A DNA stretch of 64,000 nucleotides from Escherichia coli. Lineage in GTDB: Bacteria > Pseudomonadota > Gammaproteobacteria > Enterobacterales > Enterobacteriaceae. The notes beneath the pieces are model-generated. The model had not been told where the DNA came from. It saw only the letters and a list, made by a program, of their open reading frames with translations, and did not search any database. Of the stretch, positions 7,981-49,004 are shown in pieces; position 1 is the stretch's first letter; each line of letters starts with the position of its first letter. The stretch lies in NCBI RefSeq assembly GCF_013315695.1, contig NZ_CP054353.1; one strand, given 5' to 3'. The translations under genes were made by a program, and so were the position numbers.

Positions 7981-8715
7981 ATGTCTGACAACACCATCCC
8001 TGAATATCTGCAACCCGCGCTGGCACAACTGGAAAAGGCCAGAGCCGCCCATCTTGAGAACGCCCGCCTGATGGATGAGACCGTCACGGCCATTGAACGG
8101 GCAGAGCAGGAAAAAAATGCGCTGGCGCAGGCCGACGGAAACGACGCTGACGACTGGCGCACGGCCTTTCGTGCAGCCGGTGGTGTCCTGAGCGATGAGC
8201 TGAAACAGCGCCACATTGAGCGCGTGGCACGCCGGGAGCTGGTACAGGAATATGACAATCTGGCCGTGGTGCTGAATTTTGAACGCGAACGCCTGAAAGG
8301 GGCGTGTGACAGCACGGCCACCGCCTACCGGAAGGCACATCATCACCTTCTGAGTCTGTATGCAGAGCATGAGCTGGAACACGCCCTGAATGAAACCTGT
8401 GAGGCGCTTGTCCGGGCAATGCATCTGAGCATCCTGGTACAGGAAAATCCGCTCGCCAACACCACCGGCCATCAGGGCTACATCTCACCGGAAAAGGCTG
8501 TCATGCAGCAGGTGAAATCATCGCTGGAACAGAAAATAAAACAGATGCAAATCAGCCTCAGCGGTGAGCCGGTTCTCCGGCTGGCCGGACTGTCAGCGGC
8601 AACACTCCCGCACATGGATTATGAGGTGGCAGGCACACCGGCGCAGCGCAAGGTGTGGCAGGACAAAATAGACCAGCAGGGAGCAGAGCTGAAGGCCAGA
8701 GGACTGCTGTCATGA
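7981..8715 (+). CDS. sid: Sid-like capsid size-determination (external scaffold) protein, 244 aa
   Basis: Position first in the sid-delta-psu block; length equals P4 Sid; stop overlaps the delta start (ATGA). Confidence 0.6.
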   Translation: MSDNTIPEYLQPALAQLEKARAAHLENARLMDETVTAIERAEQEKNALAQADGNDADDWRTAFRAAGGVLSDELKQRHIERVARRELVQEYDNLAVVLNFERERLKGACDSTATAYRKAHHHLLSLYAEHELEHALNETCEALVRAMHLSILVQENPLANTTGHQGYISPEKAVMQQVKSSLEQKIKQMQISLSGEPVLRLAGLSAATLPHMDYEVAGTPAQRKVWQDKIDQQGAELKARGLLS

Positions 8716-9212
8716 TTTACTGCCCGTCGTGTGGACATGTTGCTCACACCCGCCGCGCACATTTCATGGACGATGGCACCAAGATAATGATTGCACAGTG
8801 CCGGAATATTTATTGCTCTGCGACATTTGAAGCGAGTGAAAGCTTTTTCTCTGACAGTAAAGATTCAGGAATGGAATACATTTCAGGCAAACAGAGATAC
8901 CGCGATTCACTGACTTCTGCCTCCGGCAGTATGAAACGCCCGAAAAGAATGCTTGTGACCGGATATTGTTGTCGGAGATGTAAAGGCCTTGCACTGTCAA
9001 GAACATCGAGGCGTCTGTCTCAGGAAGTCACCGAGCGTTTTTATGTGTGCACGGAGCCGGGTTGTGGTCTGGTGTTTAAAACGCTTCAGACCATCAACCG
9101 CTTCATTGTTCGCCCGGTCACGCCGGACGAACTGGCAGAAAGCCTGCATGAAAAACAGGAACTGCCGCCAGTACGGTTAAAAACACAATCATATTCGCTG
9201 CGTCTGGAATGA
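8712..9212 (+). CDS. delta: Delta late-gene activator (tandem Ogr-like zinc fingers), 166 aa
   Basis: Two Ogr-type Cys motifs (CPSCGHVAHTRR...C..C and a second CxxC...C block); length equals P4 Delta. Confidence 0.8.
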   Translation: MIYCPSCGHVAHTRRAHFMDDGTKIMIAQCRNIYCSATFEASESFFSDSKDSGMEYISGKQRYRDSLTSASGSMKRPKRMLVTGYCCRRCKGLALSRTSRRLSQEVTERFYVCTEPGCGLVFKTLQTINRFIVRPVTPDELAESLHEKQELPPVRLKTQSYSLRLE

Positions 9213-9285: not shown

Positions 9286-9858
9286 ATGGAAAGCACAGCC
9301 TTACAGCAGGCCTTTGACACCTGTCAGAATAACAAAGCAGCATGGCTGCAACGCAAAAATGAGCTGGCTGCGGCCGAACAGGAATATCTGCGGCTTCTGT
9401 CAGGAGAAGGCAGAAACGTCAGTCGCCTGGACGAATTACGCAATATTATCGAAGTCAGAAAATGGCAGGTGAATCAGGCCGCCGGTCGTTATATTCGTTC
9501 GCATGAAGCCGTTCAGCACATCAGCATCCGCGACCGGCTGAATGATTTTATGCTGCAGCACGGCACAGCACTGGCGGCCGCACTGGCACCGGAGCTGATG
9601 GGCTACAGTGAGCTGACGGCCATTGCCCGAAACTGTGCCATACAGCGTGCCACAGATGCCCTGCGTGAAGCCCTCCTGTCCTGGCTTGCGAAGGGTGAAA
9701 AAATTAATTATTCCGCACAGGATAGCGACATTTTAACGACCATCGGATTCAGGCCTGACGCGGCTTCGGTGGATGACAGCCGTGAAAAATTCACCCCTGC
9801 GCAGAACATGATTTTTTCGCGTAAAAGTGCGCAACTGGCATCACGTCAGTCTGTGTAA
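9286..9858 (+). CDS. psu: Psu-like polarity-suppression / capsid decoration protein, 190 aa
   Basis: Position after delta and length equal to P4 Psu. Confidence 0.65.
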   Translation: MESTALQQAFDTCQNNKAAWLQRKNELAAAEQEYLRLLSGEGRNVSRLDELRNIIEVRKWQVNQAAGRYIRSHEAVQHISIRDRLNDFMLQHGTALAAALAPELMGYSELTAIARNCAIQRATDALREALLSWLAKGEKINYSAQDSDILTTIGFRPDAASVDDSREKFTPAQNMIFSRKSAQLASRQSV

Positions 9859-10021
9859 AACTCCCCGAAAATCCGCCCGTTTTACTGAAAAAAGCCATGC
9901 ATCGATAAGGTGCATGGCTTTGCATGCGTTTTCCTGCCTCATTTTCTGTAAACCGTGCCATTCCCGGCGCGGTCTGAGCGTGTCAGTACAACTGCATTAA
10001 AACCGCCCCGCAAAGCGGGCG

Positions 10022-10040
10022 GGCGAGGCGGGGAAAGCAC
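10022..10040. other. cos site (cohesive end) of the P4-like element
   Basis: ggcgaggcggggaaagcac matches the P2/P4-family cohesive-end sequence as I recall it; located after psu as in P4. Confidence 0.6.
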
Positions 10041-10074
10041 TGCGCGCAGTATAAGAATTAAATAGGTATGGATT

Positions 10075-12033
10075 TTAAAATCCATCAAGTAGCTGATTGA
10101 TACCATTGCTCTCATCACAATTTATTTGCTCTAACTCAAATAAAGCACTGTCGTACTTTATTTGGGGAGTGTTTTCAAATGACAATAAAGATTCGATTAG
10201 TCTTATTTCTTTATCTTTATTTATGTCTTTAAGTGAGTCTAAAGTTAAATTGAATTTAACTTCGGGTTGTTTTCCTACTTCCATCATGATATTTGACTCC
10301 AACTCTGGATCAGTATTGAAGAATCGATGTGTCTTATGGAAATAACTAGGTTTTCTTGATTTTAAAATACTTAGTATATCCGACTTGATAGTGCTTTCCC
10401 GTGCTATCACAAGCCAATGGTTGGCAACCCCTGTGATGGTGGTAATGATGTGGGAGCCATTTTCACTTAGTTCATTAAAGGCTCTTAAGTCACCCTTGAA
10501 AAAATCATTTAGCAACTCATTTTCTTTATCTTTATCAAAAAGGTAAATTATTGAATTGCCGGCTAATGATATTTCAGCCTTGGTTTTTATAGTATCGCAA
10601 TTAAATTGCGCGGTCTCATTTTTTAATTCTTCGTAAGATGATTTTAAGTCTAAAAGCAAGCATTTTATTATACTTGATCTGAAAGATGAGTAATCAATAT
10701 CAGCACAAAGTGAAAATAAATTTCTGTGACGAATGGATTCAGGGCTGTAATATAGCTTTGTTAATATTTCTTTTTGGCGTTCTTTTGTGTCACGACAGAT
10801 AAACATAGCTGCAAAATATTCCATTAATGATTTGTGTGACCAACGAATAATAGCGCCTTCTTTGACAAATAATGGAACGGTTTCAATTAAGTCCTGAATA
10901 AAAAGAGATGGTGAAGTTGATATTCCGGGAATTTTTGAAATGATATTTTGCAATGTTATTTGCAGATCGTCTTTCGTAAACTCAATTTTACCTCCGTCTT
11001 TCAAACACCAAAAACCTAATCTCCTTAAGACCTGATGGAAGTCAGTGGAGTCTAGCTTAGAAAATTTTTCTCTAACATAACCAAGTTCTTTAGTTAAATC
11101 ATGAGACTCATACAAAGCGTCAAATACTTGGCTATAAAATAACTCTCTTTTTCTTGGTATTATCGGTTTGAATTTATATGCACAAAATAATAATGAAACA
11201 TAAAGAGGTGTGGATAAAAATTCATTTAGATTATGACCATTCTCCAGTCGTAATCCTTTAATTAATTGAGATGAAATAGGGCCACGTCCATCATATCGAC
11301 GTAATAGATCATACGCTTGATTCGTTTCTAATGGGTTGATTTTAAATCTTGAGAAACCATGTAGTTCTGATAAGAAATTATCATGACGAGAAGTTATAAT
11401 TATTTTGCTTTCTGAGAAATTATTAGCAAAGGTACTTAGTAAATTTACGATCTTGGATTTGAGTTGTTGTGGGATTTCATCTATGCCATCGAAAAGATAA
11501 ATAAAAGGGATTTTTTTGAGGCAGTTGTCTGAAATGTCTTCTCCTAAACCAAGTTGATGTTTCACCTGTAGCGCAAAATCATAATCTTTAGCACGTCGTA
11601 ATTCAATGTATATTGGAATGTATTCCTTATTAGCGATGCAATCTAAAGCAATTCTTTTCATTAGGGTGGACTTACCCATTCCTGCTGAGTCAGTGATTAA
11701 TATATGATTGAAATTATCTAATAAATCTGCATTGTCTTTTATTAGGCATGTGTATGGTTTTTTTTCATTATCGTAATAAATGCTCATTGGCTCATAAATA
11801 TCTAGAAGCTCTACTGGAGTATTTTGAAAAGCTAAGGTATTCACAAGGGAGCATTGCCCTTTCACATTTGATAGGAAACGTTCAAGATTTTTATTCAAGA
11901 AGCGTGCTGCATGTACATCTATTAAATAATTACGAACACTACTTTCTATGATAGGTAATATTTTATTCTTAATAACCTCCTTTGCCCATGGAAGGGATGC
12001 AGAGACTAATACATCAAGAGATACTGGTTGCAT
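10075..12033 (-). CDS. NACHT-type STAND NTPase (652 aa), candidate anti-phage protein in the P4 cargo slot
   Basis: Walker A GMGKST and NACHT-type Walker B LFDGIDE; long C-terminal helical region; strongly AT-rich versus flanks; sits between cos/psu and int. Confidence 0.75.
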   Translation of the reverse strand: MQPVSLDVLVSASLPWAKEVIKNKILPIIESSVRNYLIDVHAARFLNKNLERFLSNVKGQCSLVNTLAFQNTPVELLDIYEPMSIYYDNEKKPYTCLIKDNADLLDNFNHILITDSAGMGKSTLMKRIALDCIANKEYIPIYIELRRAKDYDFALQVKHQLGLGEDISDNCLKKIPFIYLFDGIDEIPQQLKSKIVNLLSTFANNFSESKIIITSRHDNFLSELHGFSRFKINPLETNQAYDLLRRYDGRGPISSQLIKGLRLENGHNLNEFLSTPLYVSLLFCAYKFKPIIPRKRELFYSQVFDALYESHDLTKELGYVREKFSKLDSTDFHQVLRRLGFWCLKDGGKIEFTKDDLQITLQNIISKIPGISTSPSLFIQDLIETVPLFVKEGAIIRWSHKSLMEYFAAMFICRDTKERQKEILTKLYYSPESIRHRNLFSLCADIDYSSFRSSIIKCLLLDLKSSYEELKNETAQFNCDTIKTKAEISLAGNSIIYLFDKDKENELLNDFFKGDLRAFNELSENGSHIITTITGVANHWLVIARESTIKSDILSILKSRKPSYFHKTHRFFNTDPELESNIMMEVGKQPEVKFNLTLDSLKDINKDKEIRLIESLLSFENTPQIKYDSALFELEQINCDESNGINQLLDGF

Positions 12034-12036
12034 GAA

Positions 12037-13245
12037 TTATACCTTATTTTCTACGTTTAAATTTTTGACCTTAAGTCCCCACCAGTTCATTAAATCGATT
12101 CTGGTATGTAAATATGTTGAGCGGTTATATGCTCTTCTAACTTCGTTTTTGTCAGAGTGCGCTAAAGCAGCTTCAATGACATCTGGGTTAAAACCTCTTT
12201 CATTCATGGCTGTACTTGCTATTGAACGTAGACCATGAGCAACCAGCTTCCCGCCATAACCAATACGTTTTAAAGCAGCATTAGCAGTTTGGCTATTCAT
12301 TGGCTGTTTTGGGTCATTTCTACTGGGAAAAACATGTTCACGATGAGCACTGATTGGTTTCATTACCTCCAGAATCTCTATTGCCTGAGGTGATAAAGGA
12401 ACAATGTGTTCCCGCTTAGCTTTCATCCGTTCGGCTGGAATAGTCCAGAGCTTTGCGTCAAGATCGATCTCTGCCCAACGAGCACCGGAAGCTTCAGAAG
12501 GGCGCACAAGGGTCAGAAGCTGCCACTCAATTAGACAGCGAGTCGAAACAGAGAGGTTCGACATCACCAAAGAGCGCATGAGTTTTGGTAATTCTTCAGG
12601 TCGTAGCGTTGGCATGTGTTGCTTTTTGGGTTTCTCAAATGCCATACCAATACCAGATGCCGGGTTTGCATCAATCAGGCCAGTGTTGACGGCGTAGATC
12701 ATGATTTCGTTAATACGCTGCACCAGTCGACGTACAGTCTCTAGCGCCCCACGTGCTTTGATTGGCTCAAGGGTTTCAACTAGTGTTCGGGCTTTGATTT
12801 GCTGGACAGGGATCTCCCCGATGACAGGGAATACGTCTTTTTCCAGTGACCGCCATATATCTTTAGCGTAATCGGGTGTAACGCTTTTGCTTTTGAGCTG
12901 GAACCAGTTAGCGGCGACCGTTGAAAAAATACTGTCCAGAGCGATTTGCTGCTGTTCCTCTGCAACTTCGGCCTGAATTTGCGGGTCAATTCCGTTGGCT
13001 AACAAAGCAAGGTAATCCGCTCTTAACCGTCGAGCATCAGCAAGTGAAAGGGCGGGGAAAGCACCAAGCCCCATCATTGTCCGCTGTTTTGTTGCTGGAC
13101 GTTGATAACGGAAACGCCACAACTTCTTACCGTTCGTTTTAACGAGCAGAAAAAGACCATCGCCATCATGTAACGTTAGATCCTTTTCTAACGCTCTAGC
13201 GCGCAGAACTTCTGTGCTGGTCAGGGGGCGTGTCGTTCTTGCCAC
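12037..13245 (-). CDS. int: P4-type tyrosine integrase (402 aa)
   Basis: P4 integrase-like N-terminus (...GLFLLV...G.K.WRFRY) and C-terminal catalytic region (...HGLR...RAYNRS); adjacent to ssrA-derived att core. Confidence 0.9.
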   Translation of the reverse strand: MARTTRPLTSTEVLRARALEKDLTLHDGDGLFLLVKTNGKKLWRFRYQRPATKQRTMMGLGAFPALSLADARRLRADYLALLANGIDPQIQAEVAEEQQQIALDSIFSTVAANWFQLKSKSVTPDYAKDIWRSLEKDVFPVIGEIPVQQIKARTLVETLEPIKARGALETVRRLVQRINEIMIYAVNTGLIDANPASGIGMAFEKPKKQHMPTLRPEELPKLMRSLVMSNLSVSTRCLIEWQLLTLVRPSEASGARWAEIDLDAKLWTIPAERMKAKREHIVPLSPQAIEILEVMKPISAHREHVFPSRNDPKQPMNSQTANAALKRIGYGGKLVAHGLRSIASTAMNERGFNPDVIEAALAHSDKNEVRRAYNRSTYLHTRIDLMNWWGLKVKNLNVENKV

Positions 13246-13429: not shown

Positions 13430-13474
13430 TGGTGGAGCTGGCGGGAGTTGAACCCGCGTCCGAAATTCCTACAT
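13430..13474. repeat. Internal att core: 45-bp copy of the ssrA 3' end (junction between P4-like element and P2-like prophage)
   Basis: tggtggagctggcgggagttgaacccgcgtccgaaattcctacat is identical to 48642-48686. Confidence 0.9.
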
Positions 13475-13589: not shown

Positions 13590-14240
13590 TTATCCGCTGC
13601 TTGAGTTGAAATCTGTGGGTTTACGGAGATTAGATCTTATGGTTTTTTCAGCGATACGAATAGTCGAAAATTTATGCAGGTTCATCAGTGCTATACAAAT
13701 CCCAAGTGCAAAAAAGTAGCTGGACATTCCTAATCTTTGCATATCAGTAAGTTTATTAATTTTCTCTAAAATATGTTGGGTTACTAATCCTTCGTATACA
13801 AAAGGTATGGAAGTTATAAAACCGCCAATAAAATAGAATGTTAAGCTTATCAGCTTTATAGATTTTCTATATATCCAAAAGCGATATCTTTTTTTTGTCC
13901 ATTTAAATATTTGTTTTTCACTACTAATAGAAATTAGTTTTTGACACTTGCTATAGTTATCAATGTCATTAACTGGATCGTTAACACCTAAAAGAATCTC
14001 TCTCTGTTCTGGAGTTAGGTTCTTATCTTTTGTTATTGCAGCAATACCATAATTATATGCAACTTTCTTGATTTTGGGATCTTCAGTATTCTTATATAGA
14101 TTGTATGCAAACTCGCTAATGTTTTTGCGCGAGTTGAAAATCTTATCTTTGGGGAAAACCCAGCCGGATCTTACCGCGAGCATCTGTATGATCGGGGTAA
14201 TTATCGCGACAGAATACTTAATTATCTCGTTTATGTTCAT
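13590..14240 (-). CDS. Hypothetical membrane protein (216 aa), cargo gene between attL and int
   Basis: AT-rich; soluble N-terminal ~125 aa followed by two hydrophobic helices; 14 bp downstream of int in the same orientation. Confidence 0.6.
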   Translation of the reverse strand: MNINEIIKYSVAIITPIIQMLAVRSGWVFPKDKIFNSRKNISEFAYNLYKNTEDPKIKKVAYNYGIAAITKDKNLTPEQREILLGVNDPVNDIDNYSKCQKLISISSEKQIFKWTKKRYRFWIYRKSIKLISLTFYFIGGFITSIPFVYEGLVTQHILEKINKLTDMQRLGMSSYFFALGICIALMNLHKFSTIRIAEKTIRSNLRKPTDFNSSSG

Positions 14241-14254
14241 GATCCATTGTTTAC

Positions 14255-15271
14255 TTAAATTAAGTTATAAAGAGGGTTTTTTGTTACTGCATCCTCCAGG
14301 TGGTCTGGAGAGAAGTGTGCATAAATCATCGTCATTTTAATATCTGAGTGCCCTAAAATATCACGTAAAACGAGTATGTTCCCACCGTTCATCATAAAAT
14401 GGCTGGCAAATGTATGGCGCAGGACGTGGGTGCATTGGCCTTCCGGTAGTTCAATACCGGCCCGTTTTACCGCCCGTTCAAAGGCTTTTCTGCATGGTGT
14501 GAATAATTTCCCTCGGTTTTTGGGTAGCTCGTTGTACAGATCCTGAGATATCGGTACGGTACGGTTTTTTTTACCCTTGGTCTTTGTATAGGTAATCCGG
14601 TATTTCGATAGTTGATGGCCCTGCAGGTTTTCAGCTTCACTCCAACGAGCACCGGTTGCTAGGCATATTTTTGCAATCATTAGCAGACTGGGGCTTTGAG
14701 AATCAGCACAGGCATCCAGCAGACGTTTAATTTCCTCCGGGGTTAGGAACGCCAGTTCACCCTCCGTAATTTTAAATGTTGGAAGCCCGGCAAGCGGGTT
14801 GGGGGCTGACCAGTGGCCCAGCTTTTTCAGTGTACCAAAAACAGATGATAGGTTGCGCTGTTCAAGGTTTACCGTGCGGGGCTTAACGGGTGACATGAAC
14901 GAGCCGTCTTCATTTTGGACCTCCCCCTTTAATCTGGCTTCCCGATATTTTGTGAAATCACCTGCTGTCAGCTCAGAGGCGATGGGATCGCCTAGACCAT
15001 TACAGATAATTCTAAGTTTCGCCATCAGGCGTTTGGGGTCTGCGAGTGTTTGACCATATAGGGAATACCACTGCTCAATCACTTCTGATAATCGCCGCCG
15101 ATCTTCCTTCTCACCAAGCCATGGCTTTTTGTTTACTTCGTTCATGGTGAAGTTTTCGAATGCTATGGCTTCGCCTTTCGTGGCAAATTGCTTACGCACG
15201 CGCTTGCCATTGCGTCCATTGGGATAGCACTCACACAACCATTTTCCGTTCGGCTGTTTTCTGATGGTCAT
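14255..15271 (-). CDS. int: P2-type tyrosine integrase (338 aa)
   Basis: Catalytic region motifs (...ARWSE...HVLRHTFASHF...LGHSDIKMTMIYAH); position next to att and repressor. Confidence 0.9.
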   Translation of the reverse strand: MTIRKQPNGKWLCECYPNGRNGKRVRKQFATKGEAIAFENFTMNEVNKKPWLGEKEDRRRLSEVIEQWYSLYGQTLADPKRLMAKLRIICNGLGDPIASELTAGDFTKYREARLKGEVQNEDGSFMSPVKPRTVNLEQRNLSSVFGTLKKLGHWSAPNPLAGLPTFKITEGELAFLTPEEIKRLLDACADSQSPSLLMIAKICLATGARWSEAENLQGHQLSKYRITYTKTKGKKNRTVPISQDLYNELPKNRGKLFTPCRKAFERAVKRAGIELPEGQCTHVLRHTFASHFMMNGGNILVLRDILGHSDIKMTMIYAHFSPDHLEDAVTKNPLYNLI

Positions 15272-15272
15272 A

Positions 15273-15905
15273 TCAAAGGCTCTTAATGATTTTCAGTGCA
15301 CGGCCTACTACCTCAATGTCATCCAGGCCACACTCAAACGATGAATCATCCTGATGCACTACTAATCTGTTTCCCGGGAGTCGAGTCAATTTAACAATGC
15401 TTTTTATCCCGTCGATATCGACTAACCACATACCATTCACTGGTGGTGTTTGGTTGCGATCTATTAAATAAGAATCACCAGAAGTAGTCACCAGCAGTAG
15501 GTTGCTTGAGTCTGAGGGGAGTATGCTGCTATCAATGATTGCTTTTCCAGCATCGACCAATAAACCACCGTTGAGAGTCGCCTTGTCAATTTCAGGAGAT
15601 ACTAGTTCAGAAAGAGGTACAACCTTGCTGGAGTTCACGGAATTGATATTTTTTTTAGGTTCAATGTTTGGACCTGGCTCCCCCTGTCCGGTGGTTAGCC
15701 ACAGTAAAGAAACTCCTGTTTCCAAGGCGCACTGAATCACCCACTCTGCAGGAAAACTATCTCTTAAGTATCTGTTTGCCATGGTGCTTTTTGATGCGCC
15801 TAAGTGATCGCAAAGTTGCTGTCTGGACTTGAAATCATAGGCTGCCATTAGTCTATGGATAGCTTCTCTTCCCCCTGTATTCTCTCCAGCCTTTACCTGT
15901 ATCAT
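15273..15905 (-). CDS. CI-type immunity repressor (210 aa, HTH N-terminus)
   Basis: Divergent from the apl/cox-like gene, adjacent to int; size closer to phage 186 CI than P2 C. Confidence 0.7.
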   Translation of the reverse strand: MIQVKAGENTGGREAIHRLMAAYDFKSRQQLCDHLGASKSTMANRYLRDSFPAEWVIQCALETGVSLLWLTTGQGEPGPNIEPKKNINSVNSSKVVPLSELVSPEIDKATLNGGLLVDAGKAIIDSSILPSDSSNLLLVTTSGDSYLIDRNQTPPVNGMWLVDIDGIKSIVKLTRLPGNRLVVHQDDSSFECGLDDIEVVGRALKIIKSL

Positions 15906-22519: not shown

Positions 22520-22735
22520 ATGTCAAGCATCGCCGCATTTAGCCTGGGTAACCCAGTTGAACGTCTGGCAAGGGTTCTTAAAGAGAACCAGGACAAACTC
22601 AATCTTAGTAAAGATGGTTTTGTGTCCGTAGACTTGTCTAACAAAAGAGCAATGGATGCCATCAAGGCACAGATGGATAAGCTTGAAGGCATCAAAACGA
22701 GCACTGTAAAAGAGAAAACTAATAGAACCAGATAA
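22520..22735 (+). CDS. Hypothetical small protein (71 aa), first gene of a two-gene cargo module
   Basis: Strong RBS (gggggag); stop overlaps the next start (ATAATGG). Confidence 0.5.
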   Translation: MSSIAAFSLGNPVERLARVLKENQDKLNLSKDGFVSVDLSNKRAMDAIKAQMDKLEGIKTSTVKEKTNRTR

Positions 22736-23577
22736 TGGCAACATTACTTTTAGCAGTGATTTTGGTTAGTGGTTTTATTTATGTAAACCTATCACTTTCA
22801 ACAAGATACCGATATAAGCGTTCCAACGGCTGGGACGCTTATTTTTTTGTGGCTGCCTGGGGTATCGTTTTTTTTCTCCTTGGCGGTTTTTTCACCTTTA
22901 TTTTGAACGTCAGCGGAGGGTTTCGTTGGCTGGCTAATGCCTTGAATCTAACACCTGACAGTTTTAACGGCATGTTGTCTTCATCGAAAGACAAACTTCA
23001 AAGAATAAATGAAATCAAACAGATAGCATGGGTTATGATTTCAATTGTCCTCGCTGCGATTTCAGGTTTTGGAAATAAGTTACGCACATCACGTGGAGAT
23101 CGTCGCTGGGATGCCTTAGCTAAAGCTGTGGGTAATAACGCTTTCGAATCATTACTCATGGAAGCGTCCGCAAGACAGTTTCCGATCATAGCAACTCTGT
23201 CGTCTCGCAAAATCTATGTTGGTCTTGTTACTTGTCCGGCGTTAGAAAACGGGCTTTCAGAACACCTTGAACTTCTCCCGATGTTAAGCGGATATAGGGA
23301 TAAAGATGATCTAACGATTAGTATCACGACTAACTATCACCAACATTATCTTGATAGTGGTGTGATAAGTGGAATGTCTCGGCTTAATATCGAAGATTTC
23401 CGTGTGCTCATACCAAAAGATGAGGTTGAAACAATTTCGTTTTTTGATACTGAGACATATAACAAATTTAAAGAAAATGAAGCCAGGGATAGAAAGAACT
23501 GTCGAAAGATTGGTAGTAAAAGTGCATCTTCGCGCAGCAAGCGTGCAGCAGATGCTGAGTCAAATGATCGTGCATGA
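22735..23577 (+). CDS. Hypothetical membrane protein (280 aa: ~3 N-terminal TM helices plus soluble C-terminal domain)
   Basis: Translationally coupled to the 71-aa ORF; hydrophobic N-terminus, charged C-terminus. Confidence 0.6.
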   Translation: MATLLLAVILVSGFIYVNLSLSTRYRYKRSNGWDAYFFVAAWGIVFFLLGGFFTFILNVSGGFRWLANALNLTPDSFNGMLSSSKDKLQRINEIKQIAWVMISIVLAAISGFGNKLRTSRGDRRWDALAKAVGNNAFESLLMEASARQFPIIATLSSRKIYVGLVTCPALENGLSEHLELLPMLSGYRDKDDLTISITTNYHQHYLDSGVISGMSRLNIEDFRVLIPKDEVETISFFDTETYNKFKENEARDRKNCRKIGSKSASSRSKRAADAESNDRA

Positions 23578-23903: not shown

Positions 23904-24320
23904 ATGATTGATGTCATTGGTAATAAATACGTTGTTGCTTTAATTTTTCCATTGTTGATGATTCTATGTGGGGCTTTTGTAAAAAAACTTGCCAGATCCT
24001 CTGGTTGGCAAAAGAGTGATTTTTACTTTGGGAATGAGTTGATATTATCGACAATTGGTGCATCATTGTTGAATTTATATGATTTGACTAAAACTGTTCA
24101 AACAGTAACCACGGTTAACCAAGTGGTTAATCAGTACATTGGAACTACTAGCTTTCTTGCCTTCTCTCTTTTTGTATTACTGGGGATCATGTCTTTTCAT
24201 CAAGATTGGGAAGGGCGAACAGGAAATCCAAAAGGTCAAATTTGGGTTTTATGTATTGGGTGTAATTTAGTCGGCATATTATTTTTTGCTTCCTTTGTTT
24301 TGTGGATTAAGGGTGTGTAA
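23904..24320 (+). CDS. Hypothetical small integral membrane protein (138 aa, ~4 TM helices)
   Basis: AT-rich; four hydrophobic segments; immediately followed by the TIR-like gene. Confidence 0.6.
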   Translation: MIDVIGNKYVVALIFPLLMILCGAFVKKLARSSGWQKSDFYFGNELILSTIGASLLNLYDLTKTVQTVTTVNQVVNQYIGTTSFLAFSLFVLLGIMSFHQDWEGRTGNPKGQIWVLCIGCNLVGILFFASFVLWIKGV

Positions 24321-24923
24321 ATGAAAAAAAATACTCTTTATATTATTTCAATTGCATTGGCTGTTGTTGGGTTTCTTATGGCTCTTATTCCACGGCTCCC
24401 ATATTTATTTCAAGGAGTTAATGATGAGATTATCATCTCCGTTATTGGATTATCTTTTGCCTATTCTGGCCTGAGTTTGATTGTGTTAATGAAATTAAGG
24501 GAAAGAAGACTAAAGGCCGTTAAAAAAGGAAAGCAAATATTTCTAATGTATCCCGTACAAGAAAAAGATAAGGCCCGTCAAATAACTTGTAAGCTTAATG
24601 AGTTAGGTTTTGATGTATGGTTTGATGAAAATAACATATTGCCCGGGCAGATTATTGAAAAGCAAATTAATCAGGCTATAGACAATAGCGCTGCGGCTAT
24701 ATTGCTTCTGTCTAATGAAGATATGGAGTCATATATAAGAAAGGAGGTAGAGGGCTTTCTCCGTAAAGCTACGGTAAAAGATGAAAACTATGTTCCTATA
24801 ATTCCTGTGATAATTGGTGATGCTGAATTGCCTGCGATGCTCAAAAACATCAAGTCTGTAAACTATGAGGATGAAAAATTAATTGATAAGCTCAATTTGT
24901 CATTGAAGTCCATTCTTGGTTGA
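24321..24923 (+). CDS. Membrane-anchored TIR-like domain protein (200 aa: 2 TM helices plus TIR-like domain)
   Basis: C-terminal region follows the TIR pattern: KQIFLMY...LNELGFDVWFDENNILPGQII...INQAIDNSAAAILLLSNEDMESYIRKEV...YVPIIPVII. Confidence 0.6.
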   Translation: MKKNTLYIISIALAVVGFLMALIPRLPYLFQGVNDEIIISVIGLSFAYSGLSLIVLMKLRERRLKAVKKGKQIFLMYPVQEKDKARQITCKLNELGFDVWFDENNILPGQIIEKQINQAIDNSAAAILLLSNEDMESYIRKEVEGFLRKATVKDENYVPIIPVIIGDAELPAMLKNIKSVNYEDEKLIDKLNLSLKSILG

Positions 24924-24955: not shown

Positions 24956-25987
24956 TCAAGTAAGCTGATAACTATCGAATGTTACTATTTCCTCATCTAG
25001 CCATATGTTTATTTCCTGTAATCTTTTTTGCAACGGTAATAACTCATTACGAACAAATACTTTACTAGCCTTCTCCACATCCCCAAACCCCCCAACATTA
25101 TTCGGCATAATCCCCATCATCTGTGGCGGAACGCGATGTGCTGCCATCATGTCATCCCGGCTCACGTTCTTGATATTTAGAAACTCATCCTTCGCCGCAA
25201 CTTCTGACAAAGGGATGATCTGAAGGCCGTCCTTTTTGCCGTTAGGCGAGTACATAAACAGGTTGCGGAAGTTACCCGGACCTTTGGCACTTTTCATTGC
25301 ATTGCGGAGGTTGTTCACGTCCTCCTGGTTCTGCGCAGCATCGGTCATGTACATGATGAAGCCTGCATGACTACCGTTAATGTAATACTTGCGGCGGAAC
25401 AGCGTGGCGGACTCATTGAGCAGGGCGGACGGAATGGCAGAAAGATAGCCGGGCAGGCCGTAGATCTCCTGGTTAATGTCCGGTTCCATCAGATGAAAAA
25501 TGCTGCCTTTCGTGAACTGATATGGCTGCGTGGTCATACCGTATTGCACAAACCAGTAGGTATCCAGGTCTAACCCGCGTCGGGTGTATTTTGCCAGGGC
25601 AGGTTCAAGGGCGATAACTTCACCGAAGCGGTTCGTGCGTTTCTCCAGGTAGGCGTTACCAAATACCAGATAGTCCTGCACAAAACGCGAAAAAGCCTGC
25701 TGGCTGAGCAGCGGGTGAGGGATGTAGGTGCTGGTCAGAATGTTGCACTTTACTGCAATCGGGGAACTATGATGAACGGCAGCGCGGAAGGTGCGCGCCA
25801 GTCCGTCAAAGCTGACGGGCGGCTCATACCAGCGGTCCATCTGTACGCATTCCACATAATCCAGCAGTTCTCGGCGGTCCAGAACAGGAACGGGATCGCC
25901 GAAGCTGAATGCTTCGGCTGTAGTTTGACTTTTAAGCTGGATCTGTTTCGTCGCCGCAGCGCGGTTCTTCTTACTCTTTCCCATCAA
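24956..25987 (-). CDS. Portal protein (P2 Q-like), 343 aa
   Basis: Size, orientation and pairing with the terminase ATPase gene as in P2 Q-P. Confidence 0.9.
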   Translation of the reverse strand: MMGKSKKNRAAATKQIQLKSQTTAEAFSFGDPVPVLDRRELLDYVECVQMDRWYEPPVSFDGLARTFRAAVHHSSPIAVKCNILTSTYIPHPLLSQQAFSRFVQDYLVFGNAYLEKRTNRFGEVIALEPALAKYTRRGLDLDTYWFVQYGMTTQPYQFTKGSIFHLMEPDINQEIYGLPGYLSAIPSALLNESATLFRRKYYINGSHAGFIMYMTDAAQNQEDVNNLRNAMKSAKGPGNFRNLFMYSPNGKKDGLQIIPLSEVAAKDEFLNIKNVSRDDMMAAHRVPPQMMGIMPNNVGGFGDVEKASKVFVRNELLPLQKRLQEINIWLDEEIVTFDSYQLT

Positions 25988-45645: not shown

Positions 45646-46742
45646 ATTTCAGCGCTGAACTGCTTAACACAGGCAACAAAACTCCCGCATTCAGCATCAG
45701 TATTGAGGGCAGGGATATCACCACTGTGCTGGATAACCGCCTGATGAGTTTGACGCTGACGGATAACCGGGGCTTTGAAGCGGACCAGCTTGATCTGGAG
45801 CTGGATGACGCTGACGGAAAAATCGTGCTGCCGCGCCGTGGTGCGGTCATTACGCTGGCGCTGGGCTGGAAGGGGCAGCCGCTTTTCCCTAAAGGGGCAT
45901 TCACAGTGGACGAGATTGAACACACTGGCGCACCGGACCGCCTGACTATCCGGGCGCGAAGTGCTGATTTTCGGGAAACGCTGAATACCCGCCGTGAAAA
46001 ATCGTGGCATAAGACCACCGTCGGGGAAGTGGTGAAGGAAATAGCCGCGCGGCACAAGCTGAAGATGGCACTGGGTAAAGACCTGTCGGATAAGCCCGTG
46101 GAGCATATAGACCAGACTAATGAGAGTGACGGCAGTTTTCTGATGCGGCTGGCGCGACAGTACGGTGCCATCGCGTCGGTGAAAAATGGCAATCTGTTAT
46201 TCATCCGGCAGGGGCAGTGCAAAAGCGCCACTGGTAAACCTCTGCCAGTGATCACTATCACACGCAAGGACGGTGACAGTCACCGATTTATCCTGGCAGA
46301 TCGCGGAGCCTACACGGGCGTAATTGCCAGCTGGTTGCATACCCGCGAACCTGCGAAGAAAGAAAGCACCACGGTGAAGCGTAAGCGCAGAACTAAGAAG
46401 CAGAAGAAAGAGCCAGAAGCGAAGCAGGGCGATTACCTGGTGGGTACGGATGAAAACGTGCTGGTACTTAATCGCACTTATGCCAACCGGAGCAACGCCG
46501 AACGAGCGGCGAAAATGCAGTGGGAACGCCTGCAACGCGGCGTTGCGTCATTTTCTCTACAACTGGCAGAAGGGCGGGCAGATCTCTACACGGAAATGCC
46601 TGTGAAGGTCAGTGGTTTTAAACAGCCGATAGATGATGCGGAATGGACCATTACGACTCTGACACATACCGTCAGCCCGGATAACGGTTTTACAACCAGT
46701 ATTGAACTTGAAGTGAAAATTAATGATCTTGAAATGGAATAA
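45642..46742 (+). CDS. Tail protein D (366 aa)
   Basis: Size and position as P2 D. Confidence 0.85.
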   Translation: MNFSAELLNTGNKTPAFSISIEGRDITTVLDNRLMSLTLTDNRGFEADQLDLELDDADGKIVLPRRGAVITLALGWKGQPLFPKGAFTVDEIEHTGAPDRLTIRARSADFRETLNTRREKSWHKTTVGEVVKEIAARHKLKMALGKDLSDKPVEHIDQTNESDGSFLMRLARQYGAIASVKNGNLLFIRQGQCKSATGKPLPVITITRKDGDSHRFILADRGAYTGVIASWLHTREPAKKESTTVKRKRRTKKQKKEPEAKQGDYLVGTDENVLVLNRTYANRSNAERAAKMQWERLQRGVASFSLQLAEGRADLYTEMPVKVSGFKQPIDDAEWTITTLTHTVSPDNGFTTSIELEVKINDLEME

Positions 46743-46810
46743 ATGGTTCTCAATATTGATATTTTGTGTATCATTGCATTGATTATGATAGCAAAGGTAG
46801 GGATCTGGAT

Positions 46811-47029
46811 ATGATGAATTGTCCAAAGTGTGGTCATGCGGCGCACACAAGGAGCAGTTTTCAAGTAACGGAAAGCACCAAAGAACGTTACTGCCAGTGC
46901 CAAAATATTAACTGCGGGAGCACTTTTGTTACCCATGAAACAGTGGTCCGGTTTATTGTGACACCTGCAGTGATTGCCACAGCCCCTCCACATCCATTGC
47001 CAGATGGTCAGGGCCATATGAATTTTTAA
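46811..47029 (+). CDS. ogr: Ogr late-gene transcriptional activator (zinc finger, 72 aa)
   Basis: MMNCPKCGHAAHTRSS...CQCQNINC... matches P2 Ogr. Confidence 0.85.
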   Translation: MMNCPKCGHAAHTRSSFQVTESTKERYCQCQNINCGSTFVTHETVVRFIVTPAVIATAPPHPLPDGQGHMNF

Positions 47030-47269
47030 GAAAGAGAACCTGCTACGGCAGGTTTTATTTTTCTGTAAGCCTATCCATTTAAAGTATAAATGAATATTTA
47101 CATTGATGATTATCATTAGAGTTGCGTTAAAGACTACACCTGCCATTTGTACAATGTTTTAAAGTAATGGCTGCAATTAAATGCAGCCATTATTTATAAT
47201 GATTAATATATATAAAATATCAGACACTGAATAATAACGTACTTTATGTTCAAGGGTCGATATAATCAC

Positions 47270-48346
47270 TTAATAGAATGTTTCTACTAAAGCGTTTACA
47301 TGTTCTCTAGCCTCGCGATAACGCTCTCTTACAACGTTGATAATTTCACCGTTTGGCATTTCATAATGAGTTTGAGCAGGAAGTTTGAAAAGAGGAATTC
47401 CCAAACTTGCAGAAACTTTCCCTGAAGTATGAAAATCTTTAACTTCAGAAAGATAGGCCGCCTCCCATTCATTTAAGTTATTGATTTCACGATATCGCTC
47501 CGTGAATAGTTCTGGGAAGTTCTGATATTGTGTAAAAGCAAAAGCACAAAGGGATTCTTTGATTGAATCATAAGCTCTGGCAACACCAAGATTAGACGTA
47601 AAGTTATTGAAAACAAAGCGATCTAACTTAGGTAATGTAAGATTATTATTCACAACTTGGCTATGAAAAGTGACAAACTTTTCTGCATAGGTTTGTGCAG
47701 CAGAAGAGGGATAATGGCCATAAAGAAGCATCATTATTCCTTTCATCCCTTCTAATGAACTGTAATCAGCCATCATAGGGACGACCAGTCTATCTGAAGA
47801 TAGTAGAGCCATTTGGGTGTAGATAGAAAAACTTGGATTACAGTCAATAAAGACAACCATATCATCGTAATCATCAATATCATGTTCTAGAGTACATAGT
47901 CGACGAAATGCTGTCATATACTCTTTCCATGCGAACCTGTTAGCTGGACTGATAACTGCATAGTTCAGTGCAAGAGTAAGGGACTCGAGGAATGAATCAC
48001 CGGCGATGAGAAACAAATTATCGCTGATTTCATCATTATATTGGTTTACTGCTACTTTGAAAGAACGTCGAATACTGGTGAAATTTGAATGGCCATCTAA
48101 AAGCCAGTCCAGAAACCCTACGACATTTTTGCGTGTTCGTGAAGATTGTAGCTCTTGATTAGTATTGTACCCACGATCACCTCCTCCAAGCAGGTATTGA
48201 GAAATGTTTGCTTGCGGACACAAATCTATTACTAGTACCTGTGTGCTGGGATTTTCTTCTGCATACTGTGCAGCAATGTTGAAACCAAGTGTTGTTTTTC
48301 CAACACCGCCTTTGTTGTTATACATTGCATAAATCTTAACTGCCAT
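47270..48346 (-). CDS. ParA/MinD-like P-loop ATPase with ~150-aa C-terminal extension (358 aa), cargo gene between ogr and attR
   Basis: Deviant Walker A NKGGVGKTT, A' motif VLVIDLCPQANIS, Walker B VVFIDCNPS; AT-rich. Confidence 0.7.
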   Translation of the reverse strand: MAVKIYAMYNNKGGVGKTTLGFNIAAQYAEENPSTQVLVIDLCPQANISQYLLGGGDRGYNTNQELQSSRTRKNVVGFLDWLLDGHSNFTSIRRSFKVAVNQYNDEISDNLFLIAGDSFLESLTLALNYAVISPANRFAWKEYMTAFRRLCTLEHDIDDYDDMVVFIDCNPSFSIYTQMALLSSDRLVVPMMADYSSLEGMKGIMMLLYGHYPSSAAQTYAEKFVTFHSQVVNNNLTLPKLDRFVFNNFTSNLGVARAYDSIKESLCAFAFTQYQNFPELFTERYREINNLNEWEAAYLSEVKDFHTSGKVSASLGIPLFKLPAQTHYEMPNGEIINVVRERYREAREHVNALVETFY

Positions 48347-48641
48347 GTGTATTTCACCCGAGGTTGAATAAAAGCCTACTACATCGCTATTTTACCATTC
48401 AATTTTATCATTAGCAGATTCCAATGAAGAAGATACTTCTGGTTTATCTAATGAAAATTGTGAAGTAAAAGTAGGATACTTCATTCTTCTGCAGTGAGGG
48501 GGGCGTGGATAACATTATAATTTCTTGTTGTATAGCCTTTTCGGGAAAGAGCAGACAAGATTTACATAAAACTCTGTCGCCATTTTGCCGCCACTTCCAA
48601 AGAAAAAGGGGCTACGCTTTCACGTAACCCCTTGATTTATT

Positions 48642-48686
48642 TGGTGGAGCTGGCGGGAGTTGAACCCGCGTCCGAAATTCCTACAT
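48642..48686. repeat. attR core: 3' end of ssrA, identical to 13430-13474
   Basis: 45-bp exact direct repeat. Confidence 0.9.
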
Positions 48687-49004
48687 CCTCGGTACTACAT
48701 GCTTAGTCAGTCTTTACATTCGCTTGCCAGCTGCGGACGGACACGCCACTAACAAACTAGCCTGATTAAGTTTTAACGCTTCAACCCCAGGCAGGGCTTC
48801 CACGCGATCTCTTTTGGGTTTGACCTCTCTTGATCCCCGTCCTAAGAGCGGAGGCTAGGGAGAGAGGGCTCTAAGCAGGTTATTAAGCTGCTAAAGCGTA
48901 GTTTTCGTCGTTTGCGACTATTTTTTGCGGCTTTTTACGAGGCCAACCGCCCCTCGGCATGCACCTTGGGTTTCGCAAATCCCGTCGAATCCAGAATCAG
49001 CCCC
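48642..49004 (-). ncRNA. ssrA: tmRNA (SsrA RNA), 363 nt
   Basis: Reverse complement begins GGGGCTGATTCTGGATTCGACGGG and ends GGGTTCAACTCCCGCCAGCTCCACCA; tag ORF region (GCAAACGACGAAAACTACGCTTTAGCAGCTTAA) present. Confidence 0.97.

What the first reader, a model, noticed from the sequence alone, without database searches (positions are those of the whole stretch)
47270..48346. ParA-like ATPase with an unknown C-terminal domain inserted between ogr and attR
In P2 the attachment site lies directly after ogr, but here a 1.1-kb AT-rich gene on the opposite strand sits between ogr and the ssrA-derived attR. The protein has a complete ParA/MinD-type deviant Walker A (KGGVGKTT), A' (VLVIDLCPQ) and B (VVFIDCNPS) followed by ~150 aa with no recognisable motif. 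An integrating phage has no obvious need for a partition ATPase, so this looks like a moron, possibly a defence or exclusion function.
Basis: partly seen in the sequence, partly recalled or inferred. Interest (0 to 1): 0.65.

Follow-up and report, generated by a model that had tools for sequence, protein, structure and literature searches.

The report
Stand-alone ParA-type prophage defence gene candidate
A rare single-gene passenger at the end of a P2/186-like E. coli prophage encodes a partner-less ParA-type ATPase that is a distant relative (32% identity) of GiPD474, a Salmonella prophage protein shown in 2025 to block phages such as T4, so it is most likely an anti-phage gene whose mechanism is still unknown.

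Summary
The ORF is real: 47270-48346, minus strand, 358 aa, 38% GC against 51% for the prophage. It lies between ogr and the ssrA junction of a ~35-kb P2/186-like prophage.

It is a swappable cargo gene, not a lineage component. Only 2 of 5,426 complete E. coli genomes carry it there, and related prophages hold unrelated small genes in the same slot.

The Walker A and B motifs are intact, but the catalytic Asp of the A' motif (Soj D44) is Cys. This Cys is a hallmark of a large family of ~340-365-aa proteins (phrog_164).

No ParB-type partner, centromere repeats or conserved neighbour appear in 12 genomic contexts. These contexts are prophage ends, immunity regions and restriction or retron islands.

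The protein is 32% identical (E 4e-47) to GiPD474, a published single-gene prophage defence, so defence is the best reading. This is inferred from homology and context and was not tested here. The mechanism is unknown.

Verdict: new member (sister clade) of a recently described kind.

The parts
47270..48346 (-). ParA-type ATPase gene, 358 aa, stand-alone (DxCPQ family, phrog_164)
48290..48313 (-). Codons for the deviant Walker A motif KGGVGKTT (residues 12-19; signature Lys12, P-loop Lys17)
   Evidence: Read from the sequence. K12, G16 and K17 are invariant in 53 homologues.
48212..48238 (-). Codons for the A' motif VLVIDLCPQ (residues 37-45). The Cys43 codon is at 48218-48220 and replaces the catalytic Asp of Soj/MinD.
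   Evidence: Ungapped alignment to Soj 1wcv and 2bek (D44A). Cys in at least 90% of A1, in 176 of 185 motif-bearing long homologues and in all 75 viral loci.
47831..47857 (-). Codons for Walker B VVFIDCNPS (residues 164-172; Asp168 invariant)
47060..48551 (.). Variable cargo module (1,492 bp), replaced by other genes in related prophages
   Evidence: Similarity to a related prophage (L003) stops at 47059 and resumes at 48552. Similarity among ParA-like cassettes from other hosts is confined to the ORF.
48347..48551 (-). Upstream non-coding region of the cargo. Candidate Shine-Dalgarno GGGTG at 48355-48359 and candidate extended -10 (TGgTAAAAT) near 48389-48397. Inferred only.
   Evidence: Read from the sequence. 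The consensus promoter scan found no strong site here.
47153..47204 (.). Inverted repeat (stem GGCTGCA/TGCAGCC) between the convergent genes; likely terminator of the cargo gene
   Evidence: Inverted repeat I1. Its role is inferred.
46811..47029 (+). ogr (late-gene activator, 72 aa), the last conserved phage gene before the slot. Its terminator is at 47035-47056.
   Evidence: RefSeq annotation of a 99.9% identical locus. Terminator scan.
48642..49004 (-). ssrA (tmRNA). The att core is its last 45 nt (48642-48686). A phage-supplied terminator lies at 48606-48633.
   Evidence: ARAGORN. Repeat search. Terminator scan.
13430..13474 (.). Second copy of the 45-bp att core, at the integrase-proximal end of the prophage
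   Evidence: Exact repeat of the core; 0 matches in the shuffles.

Best explanation
The gene is a horizontally mobile, single-gene accessory cargo of the prophage. It most likely protects the lysogen against other phages, as its relative GiPD474 does.

Proposed mechanism (inferred):
1. The protein is a ParA/Soj-type ATP switch. Signature Lys12 and P-loop Lys17 let two ATP-bound monomers form a sandwich dimer.
2. The water-activating Asp of the A' motif is Cys43, so hydrolysis is expected to be slow and the dimer long-lived.
3. The ATP-bound dimer acts after DNA injection. It binds a phage-made protein or DNA and so blocks replication or arrests the cell.
4. The family-specific insertions and the two most variable helices (253-298 and 339-358) would form the recognition surface.
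5. No separate effector is needed.

Shown here: the fold, the motifs, the solo status, the mobility, and the homology to a validated defence gene.
Inferred: the defence phenotype of this clade, the slow ATPase, and the binding-based mode of action.
For: Cargo status:
- Only 2 of 5,426 complete E. coli genomes carry the whole locus.
- Related prophages carry a 160-aa BRCT-like gene or other small genes in the same slot, always on the strand opposite ogr.
- The ORF GC is about 3 to 19 points below its flanks in all seven hosts checked (10-19 in six; only ~3 in Kosakonia).
- DNA similarity between cassettes is confined to the ORF.

Solo status:
- 12 contexts share no homologous neighbour.
- There are no centromere-like repeats.

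Defence-type neighbourhoods of close relatives (>=60% identity):
- A lambdoid Rz-terminase moron slot.
- Prophage ends next to integrases.
- Islands with type I restriction plus SIR2, an Eco57I/MmeI-type restriction enzyme plus a PLD-SNF2 helicase, a retron-like reverse transcriptase plus SymE, and MTase/HNH/MazG.
- Distant relatives sit directly after the CI repressor, co-oriented (the rexAB position), in phi297, ST11-VIM1phi8.2, ST160 and S.Inf 5-2. At least 17 of 75 IMG/VR loci show the same arrangement.

Homology to a validated defence gene:
- GiPD474 was recovered through its published primer as L027:5723-6808, 361 aa, with GGVGKT at residues 29-34 as the paper states.
- BLASTP to the window protein gives 32% identity over 328 aa, E 4e-47. 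Both match phrog_164 and both carry DxCPQ.
- The GiPD474 phenotype is described in PMC12724215.

Structure:
- pLDDT 92.9 and pTM 0.92.
Against: - No experiment exists for this clade. At 32% identity, function could have diverged, and the GiPD474 authors defined homologues at >=70% identity.
- The mechanism of GiPD474 itself is unknown.
- PADLOC (2023) has no model for the family.
- The gene is not in an immunity region here.
- Cys at the catalytic position might allow a different chemistry rather than slow hydrolysis.
- The protein is acidic (pI 5.25), which does not favour non-specific DNA binding.
- No strong promoter was found by the consensus scan.
Confidence: 0.6

Rival explanations
1. 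It is a genuine partition ATPase that segregates the excised phage genome, the neighbouring P4-like satellite, or a plasmid-state element.
For: It has a ParA fold and a deviant Walker A motif. PHROG and RefSeq name it 'ParA-like partition protein' or 'ParA family protein'. A P4-like integrase lies in tandem beyond the other att copy.
Against: - No ParB or adaptor gene and no repeats in the 1.5-kb module.
- No conserved neighbour in 12 contexts.
- It is absent from nearly all related prophages.
- The catalytic Asp is missing.
- It scores 45 bits against a cut-off of 180 for NCBIfam ParA_partition.
Confidence: 0.04
2. It is the ATPase subunit of a multi-gene defence system such as RemAIN (RemA ATPase + RemI immunity + RemN HEPN nuclease). 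In this case it would be an orphan remnant, or would work with partners encoded elsewhere.
For: RemA is also a ParA-like ATPase placed after a Gifsy-1 repressor (PMC9879122 and PMC13043305). Pairwise BLASTP to RemA gives E 6e-17.
Against: - RemA is 279 aa and keeps the canonical DVDPQ motif. It aligns only with the N-terminal 229 residues, at 28% identity.
- No HEPN or small immunity gene flanks the window gene or any relative examined.
- GiPD474 works alone in E. coli.
Confidence: 0.07
3. It is a lysogenic-conversion or host-manipulation factor unrelated to phage defence. For example, an orphan ParA/MinD-like positioning ATPase could alter host cell division, motility, surface structures or replication (as Soj acts on DnaA), or could destabilise rival plasmids.
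For: Orphan ParA/MinD ATPases such as BcsQ, FlhG, MipZ and McdA position many kinds of cargo (established knowledge), and these are among the structural neighbours. The moron context fits any lysogen-expressed function.
Against: About 60% identity from enterobacteria to cyanobacteria argues against a host-specific target. Its neighbourhoods are restriction, retron and toxin islands and prophage defence slots. The only characterised relative has an anti-phage phenotype.
Confidence: 0.15
4. It is a phage-benefit gene used during lytic growth or against satellites, for instance counter-defence or anti-P4 interference, rather than a host-protective gene.
For: It lies in a helper-type P2-like phage next to a satellite-type integrase. 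Phage accessory slots also hold anti-defence genes (general knowledge).
Against: It is transcribed opposite to the late operon from its own upstream region. Many relatives lie in non-phage defence islands. GiPD474 is expressed in lysogens during growth.
Confidence: 0.08

Closest known systems
GiPD474 (STM474_RS13505), the Gifsy-1 prophage defence protein of S. Typhimurium 4/74 (Bosma, Noireaux & Bowden 2025, PMC12724215)
   Same: Both are single prophage genes of similar size (361 aa against 358 aa). Both have a ParA/AAA_31 fold with NNKGGVGKT, IDxCPQ and FIDCNPSF motifs and match phrog_164. They align over their full length (32% identity, E 4e-47). Neither has a partner gene.
   Different: Identity is only 32%, far below the 70% the authors used, so this is a sister clade. 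GiPD474 sits after the repressor in a lambdoid immunity region, whereas this gene sits in the ogr-att slot of a P2/186-like phage. The phenotype has been shown only for GiPD474.
RemA of the RemAIN system (STM14_3218-3220, Gifsy-1 of S. Typhimurium 14028)
   Same: It is a ParA-like ATPase used in prophage-encoded defence and located in a prophage accessory region.
   Different: RemA is 279 aa, keeps the catalytic Asp (DVDPQ) and works with the HEPN nuclease RemN and the immunity protein RemI. The window protein aligns only over its N-terminal 229 residues (28% identity) and has no such neighbours.
Soj/ParA type Ib partition ATPases (e.g. T. thermophilus Soj 1wcv/2bek; ParA 8ray)
   Different: There is no ParB or parS. 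The catalytic Asp is replaced by Cys, the same position as the hydrolysis-dead Soj D44A mutant. The protein carries about 105 residues of insertions and scores far below the NCBIfam cut-offs.
P2 accessory (lysogenic-conversion) genes old, tin and Z/fun, and the lambda rexAB / BTP1 bstA position
   Same: These are AT-rich, non-essential, lysogen-expressed exclusion genes occupying variable slots of temperate phages (established knowledge). Distant relatives of this protein occupy the rexAB position.
   Different: The proteins are unrelated. As far as I recall, the ogr-att slot is not one of the two P2 hotspots usually cited; I could not check that paper here.
DIP2308 of Corynebacterium diphtheriae (PDB 3pg5), an uncharacterised 361-aa ParA-like protein
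   Different: No function is known. Whether it shares the Cys or the insertions was not examined.

Membership tests
ParA/Soj partition ATPase (ParABS) | Deviant Walker A with signature lysine (KGGxGK[ST]) | tested here: met
   K12-G-G-V-G-K17-T-T. K12, G16 and K17 are invariant in alignment A1.
ParA/Soj partition ATPase (ParABS) | ParA/MinD (SIMIBI) fold | tested here: met
ParA/Soj partition ATPase (ParABS) | Catalytic Asp in the A' motif (Soj D44 / MinD D40) | tested here: not met
   Cys43 aligns without gaps to Soj D44 and to the D44A mutant 2bek. Cys occurs in 176 of 185 homologues.
ParA/Soj partition ATPase (ParABS) | Adjacent ParB/adaptor gene and centromere repeats | tested here: not met
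   The 1,492-bp module holds only this ORF. Only chance-level repeats were found. No shared neighbour in 12 contexts.
ParA/Soj partition ATPase (ParABS) | Reaches the curated NCBIfam score for a ParA, RepA or MinD model | tested here: not met
   The best is NF041546 ParA_partition at 45.2 bits, against a cut-off of 180.
GiPD474-like solo prophage defence ATPase (phrog_164, DxCPQ type) | Full-length sequence homology to GiPD474 | tested here: met
   32% identity over 328 aa, E 4e-47. Both match phrog_164, at E 5.9e-40 and 3.7e-47. This is below the >=70% identity used by the authors to call homologues.
GiPD474-like solo prophage defence ATPase (phrog_164, DxCPQ type) | Length of about 340-365 aa with the IDxCPQ and FIDCNPSF motifs | tested here: met
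   358 aa, with IDLCPQ and FIDCNPSF. GiPD474 has IDACPQ and FIDCNPSF. All 75 viral loci have DxCPQ.
GiPD474-like solo prophage defence ATPase (phrog_164, DxCPQ type) | Single gene with no cognate partner, in a variable prophage region | tested here: met
GiPD474-like solo prophage defence ATPase (phrog_164, DxCPQ type) | Located beside the CII/Cro/repressor module | tested here: not met
   Here the gene lies between ogr and the ssrA junction. Close relatives lie at prophage ends or in the Rz-terminase slot.
GiPD474-like solo prophage defence ATPase (phrog_164, DxCPQ type) | Reduces plating of phages when expressed alone | not testable with these tools
   Needs plaque assays. It has been shown only for GiPD474.
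RemAIN | RemA-type ATPase with adjacent RemI and the HEPN nuclease RemN | tested here: not met
   RemA, RemI and RemN were recovered in L109. Identity is 28% over 229 aa only. There are no neighbouring genes of that kind.
Any system in PADLOC-DB v2.0.0 | Match to a defence-protein HMM | tested here: not met
   The only hit is PDC-M28B at E 0.021 over the P-loop. GiPD474 has no hit either.

The most novel reading that the evidence does not exclude
The DxCPQ ParA-like proteins could be a large, largely unrecognised class of one-protein immunity. The search found 2,745 homologues at E<=1e-5, with about 60% identity from enterobacteria to cyanobacteria. In this reading a ParA-type ATP switch is both sensor and effector. 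It would lock as a hydrolysis-poor dimer onto a phage component or DNA, with no nuclease, NADase or membrane effector. The window's clade would be the most widespread branch and has not been studied.
Probability: 0.35. Interest if true: 0.72.

Novelty: new member of a known kind. Interest (0 to 1): 0.5.

Why it matters
If this clade protects against phages, one 2025 observation in Salmonella would extend to a family found across Proteobacteria and cyanobacteria. Current defence-finding databases (PADLOC 2023) miss this family.

It would also mark the ogr-att junction of ssrA-integrating P2/186-like phages as a third cargo slot worth mining.

The natural Asp-to-Cys change sits at the position whose mutation traps Soj, MinD and McdA as ATP dimers. 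That gives a direct, testable mechanistic handle on how a partition-type ATPase was turned into an immune protein.

Tried and rejected
- Centromere-like repeats or a small partner ORF in the module: only two-copy repeats of 70-80% identity were found. A 40-aa ORF overlapping the ssrA terminator is not conserved elsewhere.
- Known defence systems: PADLOC gave only a P-loop-level hit. NCBIfam gave nothing near its cut-offs.
- Independent context in the third E. coli genome (H3): it turned out to be the same junction truncated by IS3, so it is not independent.
- RemA as the closest relative: rejected. RemA is shorter, keeps the Asp and shows only N-terminal similarity.
- The second ParA-like gene in the Kosakonia island as a paralogue of the family: it has DFDPQ and is closer to the ST160 type.
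- Literature: ten searches found no paper on this clade. The 2024 RemAIN paper (PMC11840918) is not held.
- A linked-dimer AlphaFold run was considered and dropped, because the tool returns no interface information.
- The consensus promoter scan found no strong site upstream of the gene, so the promoter assignment is tentative.

Full report
**1. Observation**

- The window has an ATG-initiated ORF at 47270-48346 on the minus strand, encoding 358 aa.
- The quoted motifs are all there: KGGVGKTT (residues 12-19), VLVIDLCPQ (37-45) and VVFIDCNPS (164-172).
- The ORF has 38.3% GC, against 51.3% for the rest of the prophage and 49.3% for the host flank.
- ARAGORN finds ssrA at 48642-49004 on the minus strand.
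- The last 45 nt of ssrA (48642-48686) recur exactly at 13430-13474, with no such match in shuffles. The prophage therefore spans about 13475-48641.
- RefSeq annotation of a 99.9% identical locus (E. coli 1002W03) shows a P2/186-like gene order: CI, CII, replication, portal, terminase, capsid, lysis, tail, D, ogr.
- ogr (46811-47029) is followed by its terminator (47035-47056). The gene of interest converges on it.

**2. The gene is the rare occupant of a variable slot**

- Megablast of 46700-48700 against 5,426 complete E. coli genomes finds the whole stretch in only two.
- A third genome has the same junction with the gene cut by IS3 at 47783, so it is a decayed copy and not an independent context.
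- Related ssrA-integrated prophages match up to 47059 and again from 48552. In between they carry a 160-aa 'BRCT domain' gene instead.
- I fetched the 80 IMG/VR loci with the closest Ogr proteins and examined the slot:
  - 65 have the BRCT-like ORF.
  - 9 have a 124-131-aa signal-peptide protein (phrog_3807).
  - 1 has a 205-aa protein (phrog_28655).
  - None has the ParA-like gene.
  - All these cargo ORFs lie on the strand opposite ogr.
An occupied ogr-att slot is the norm in this lineage.

**3. What the protein is**

- Pfam gives AAA_31 (residues 4-205, E 1.9e-21) and CbiA.
- PHROGs gives phrog_164, 'ParA-like partition protein', E 5.9e-40 over residues 4-344.
- NCBIfam models all score far below their cut-offs. 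ParA_partition scores 45 bits against a cut-off of 180.
- PADLOC gives only a P-loop-level hit.
- An AlphaFold model built on a 53-sequence alignment is very confident (pLDDT 92.9, pTM 0.92) and forms one compact body.
- The secondary structure runs in ParA order to the end: beta6 at 240-249, beta7 at 299-303, the helix equivalent to Soj 'VRLAEAPSFG' at 306-315, and the C-terminal helix at 340-355.
- There is therefore no appended C-terminal domain. About 105 residues are insertions (roughly 55-110, 210-238, 253-298 and 320-338).

**4. A family hallmark**

- In the phmmer alignment to T. thermophilus Soj, Cys43 aligns without gaps to Asp44. This is the residue mutated in the hydrolysis-deficient structure 2bek.
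- Cys occupies this position in at least 90% of alignment A1, in 176 of 185 motif-bearing long homologues, and in all 75 viral loci examined.
- By established knowledge of Soj D44A, MinD D40A and McdA D38A, loss of this Asp traps the ATP sandwich dimer.
- My inference is that these proteins are slow ATPases acting as long-lived ATP switches.
- Signature Lys12, P-loop Lys17 and Walker B Asp168 are invariant.

**5. Distribution and context**

- The word-indexed search finds 2,745 homologues at E<=1e-5. The best 120 are all ~341-415 aa (mostly 350-376) and 59-100% identical to the query. They come from Enterobacterales, Aeromonas, Vibrio, Pseudomonas, Burkholderia, Ralstonia, Stenotrophomonas and cyanobacteria.
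- The exhaustive search shows further full-length relatives of ~340-370 aa at 30-38% identity.
- Close relatives occupy the following places:
  - The Rz-to-small-terminase slot of Morganella lambdoid prophages, on the opposite strand.
  - The end of a Pantoea P2/HP1-like prophage.
  - Integrase-adjacent ends of elements in Citrobacter/E. coli and Stenotrophomonas.
  - A P. syringae prophage end.
  - A Kosakonia ssrA island with a retron-like reverse transcriptase and SymE.
  - A Burkholderia islet with MTase, HNH, MazG and SymE.
  - A Scytonema locus beside an Eco57I/MmeI-type enzyme and a PLD-SNF2 helicase.
  - A Vibrio island with type I restriction, SIR2, H-NS and a pyocin.
- Neighbouring proteins are not homologous between contexts.
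- DNA similarity between cassettes stops at the ORF ends.
- In the seven hosts checked, the ORF GC is about 3 to 19 points lower than its flanks (10-19 in six; only ~3 in Kosakonia).
- Distant relatives sit immediately after the CI repressor and co-oriented with it. This is so in Pseudomonas phi297, Klebsiella ST11-VIM1phi8.2 and Salmonella S.Inf 5-2. In Salmonella ST160 one small gene intervenes. At least 17 of 75 IMG/VR loci show the arrangement. This is the position of lambda rexAB.

**6. Link to experiment**

- A full-text search on 'AAA_31' and defence led to Bosma, Noireaux & Bowden 2025 (PMC12724215).
- GiPD474 is a single Gifsy-1 gene of S. Typhimurium 4/74. It encodes a ParA/MinD/Soj-like ATPase 'plus unknown domain' and lies beside the CII/Cro/repressor module.
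- Deleting it restores Felix O1 plating.
- On a low-copy plasmid in LT2 or E. coli K-12 it lowers plating of T4 and Alf5 by about 5 logs and restricts FO1.
- T7, SP6, LPST153, Jbel, VpaE1 and S16 are unaffected.
- The authors state that the mechanism is unknown.
- I recovered the sequence by scanning IMG/VR with the published lambda-Red primer arm. L027:5723-6808 encodes 361 aa, starts with the primer sequence, and has GGVGKT at residues 29-34 as the paper says.
- BLASTP against the window protein gives 32% identity over 328 residues, E 4e-47.
- GiPD474 also hits phrog_164 and has IDACPQ.
- The Klebsiella phage protein is 83% identical to GiPD474.
- A second precedent is RemA of RemAIN, in Gifsy-1 of strain 14028 (PMC9879122, PMC13043305). 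I recovered it in the same way.
  - It is a 279-aa canonical ParA-like ATPase with DVDPQ.
  - It is followed by RemI and the HEPN nuclease RemN.
  - It matches the window protein only over the N-terminal 229 residues, at 28% identity.
- The window protein therefore belongs with the solo GiPD474 type and not with RemA.

**7. Mechanism**

Shown here:
- A ParA fold.
- An intact ATP-binding and dimerisation apparatus.
- Loss of the catalytic Asp.
- No partner and no added enzymatic domain.
- Within the close clade, the least conserved segments are 253-298 and 339-358. The core and the motif DFHTSGKVSxxLGxP are nearly invariant.

Inferred:
- The protein forms a long-lived ATP dimer.
- Its insertion and variable-helix surface recognises a phage-made component or DNA after injection, and blocks replication or arrests the cell.

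Caveats:
- The acidic pI (5.25) argues against simple non-specific DNA coating.
- I rate 'anti-phage cargo gene' at about 0.6. The specific mode of action is much less certain.

**8. Rivals**

- A true partition role is very unlikely. There is no adaptor or centromere, the allele is rare, the catalytic Asp is lost, and the HMM scores are below threshold.
- A RemAIN-like multi-gene system is unlikely.
- A non-defence host-manipulation role, or a phage-benefit role, cannot be excluded without experiments.

**9. Novelty**

- The kind (a solo ParA-type prophage defence ATPase) was published in November 2025.
- This gene is a 32%-identical sister clade in a different phage type and slot. It is absent from PADLOC 2023, and no paper on it was found in ten searches.
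- I classify it as a new member of a known kind.
- Interest is moderate. The finding is not categorically new. However, the family is large, its mechanism is open, and the Asp-to-Cys hallmark makes that mechanism directly testable.

Noticed in passing
window 23904-24923 (+), also 22735-23577 (+): The classical P2 hotspot lies between the portal gene (24956-25987, minus strand) and the replication genes. Here it carries a 200-aa TIR-domain gene (PADLOC SAVED_TIR/ThsB-like hits, E 5e-11) preceded by a 138-aa ORF and a 280-aa ORF that have no family match. This is probably a second defence cargo in the same prophage.
   Followed up: partly
window 10075-13245 (-), left of the att copy at 13430-13474: A second integrative element lies in tandem at ssrA. 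It has a P4-type integrase (402 aa; NF007246, 588 bits) followed by a 652-aa ORF with no PADLOC or NCBIfam match. In the near-identical genome 1002W03 this side carries a 'phage polarity suppression protein', which indicates a P4-like satellite.
   Followed up: partly
L003 4357-4839 and 65 of 80 IMG/VR ogr loci (L030 onwards): The usual occupant of the ogr-att slot is a 160-182-aa protein with a BRCT-like C-terminus (phrog_2561, annotated 'DNA ligase'). It has a weak PADLOC hit to the defence candidate PDC-S48 (E 1.7e-7). Other alleles are 124-131-aa signal-peptide/lipoprotein-like proteins (phrog_3807) and a 205-aa protein (phrog_28655). The slot behaves as a single-gene cargo hotspot.
   Followed up: partly
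L004 (Kosakonia cowanii) 3530-3590, 8001-9077, 9845-10804, 10906-10984, 11524-12588: The Kosakonia relative (84% identical) also lies in an ssrA-linked island. An ssrA 3' end lies at 3530-3590. A 79-bp copy of the P2-type junction (92% identical to window 48576-48654) lies at 10906-10984. The island also holds a retron-like reverse transcriptase and a second, canonical-Asp (DFDPQ) ParA-like gene of 354 aa.
   Followed up: partly
L001 (E. coli Eco_23-2667) 13808-15564: An IS3 element truncates the same ParA-like gene to its N-terminal 188 codons next to ssrA. The rest of the P2-like prophage is gone, replaced by an island with a 1,283-aa P-loop NTPase.
   Followed up: no
L023 (Salmonella phage ST160) 3515-5068; L135, L150, L151, L157: In P22-like phages the ParA-like gene is preceded by a 113-aa DUF3024 gene, between c2 and gene 24. 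This ST160-type protein is the only phage relative with a clear PADLOC candidate hit (PDC-M28B, E 5e-8). It may belong to a two-gene variant.
   Followed up: no
window 48606-48633 (-): The terminator hairpin immediately downstream of ssrA lies on the phage side of the att core. The prophage therefore supplies the tmRNA gene's terminator after integration.
   Followed up: no
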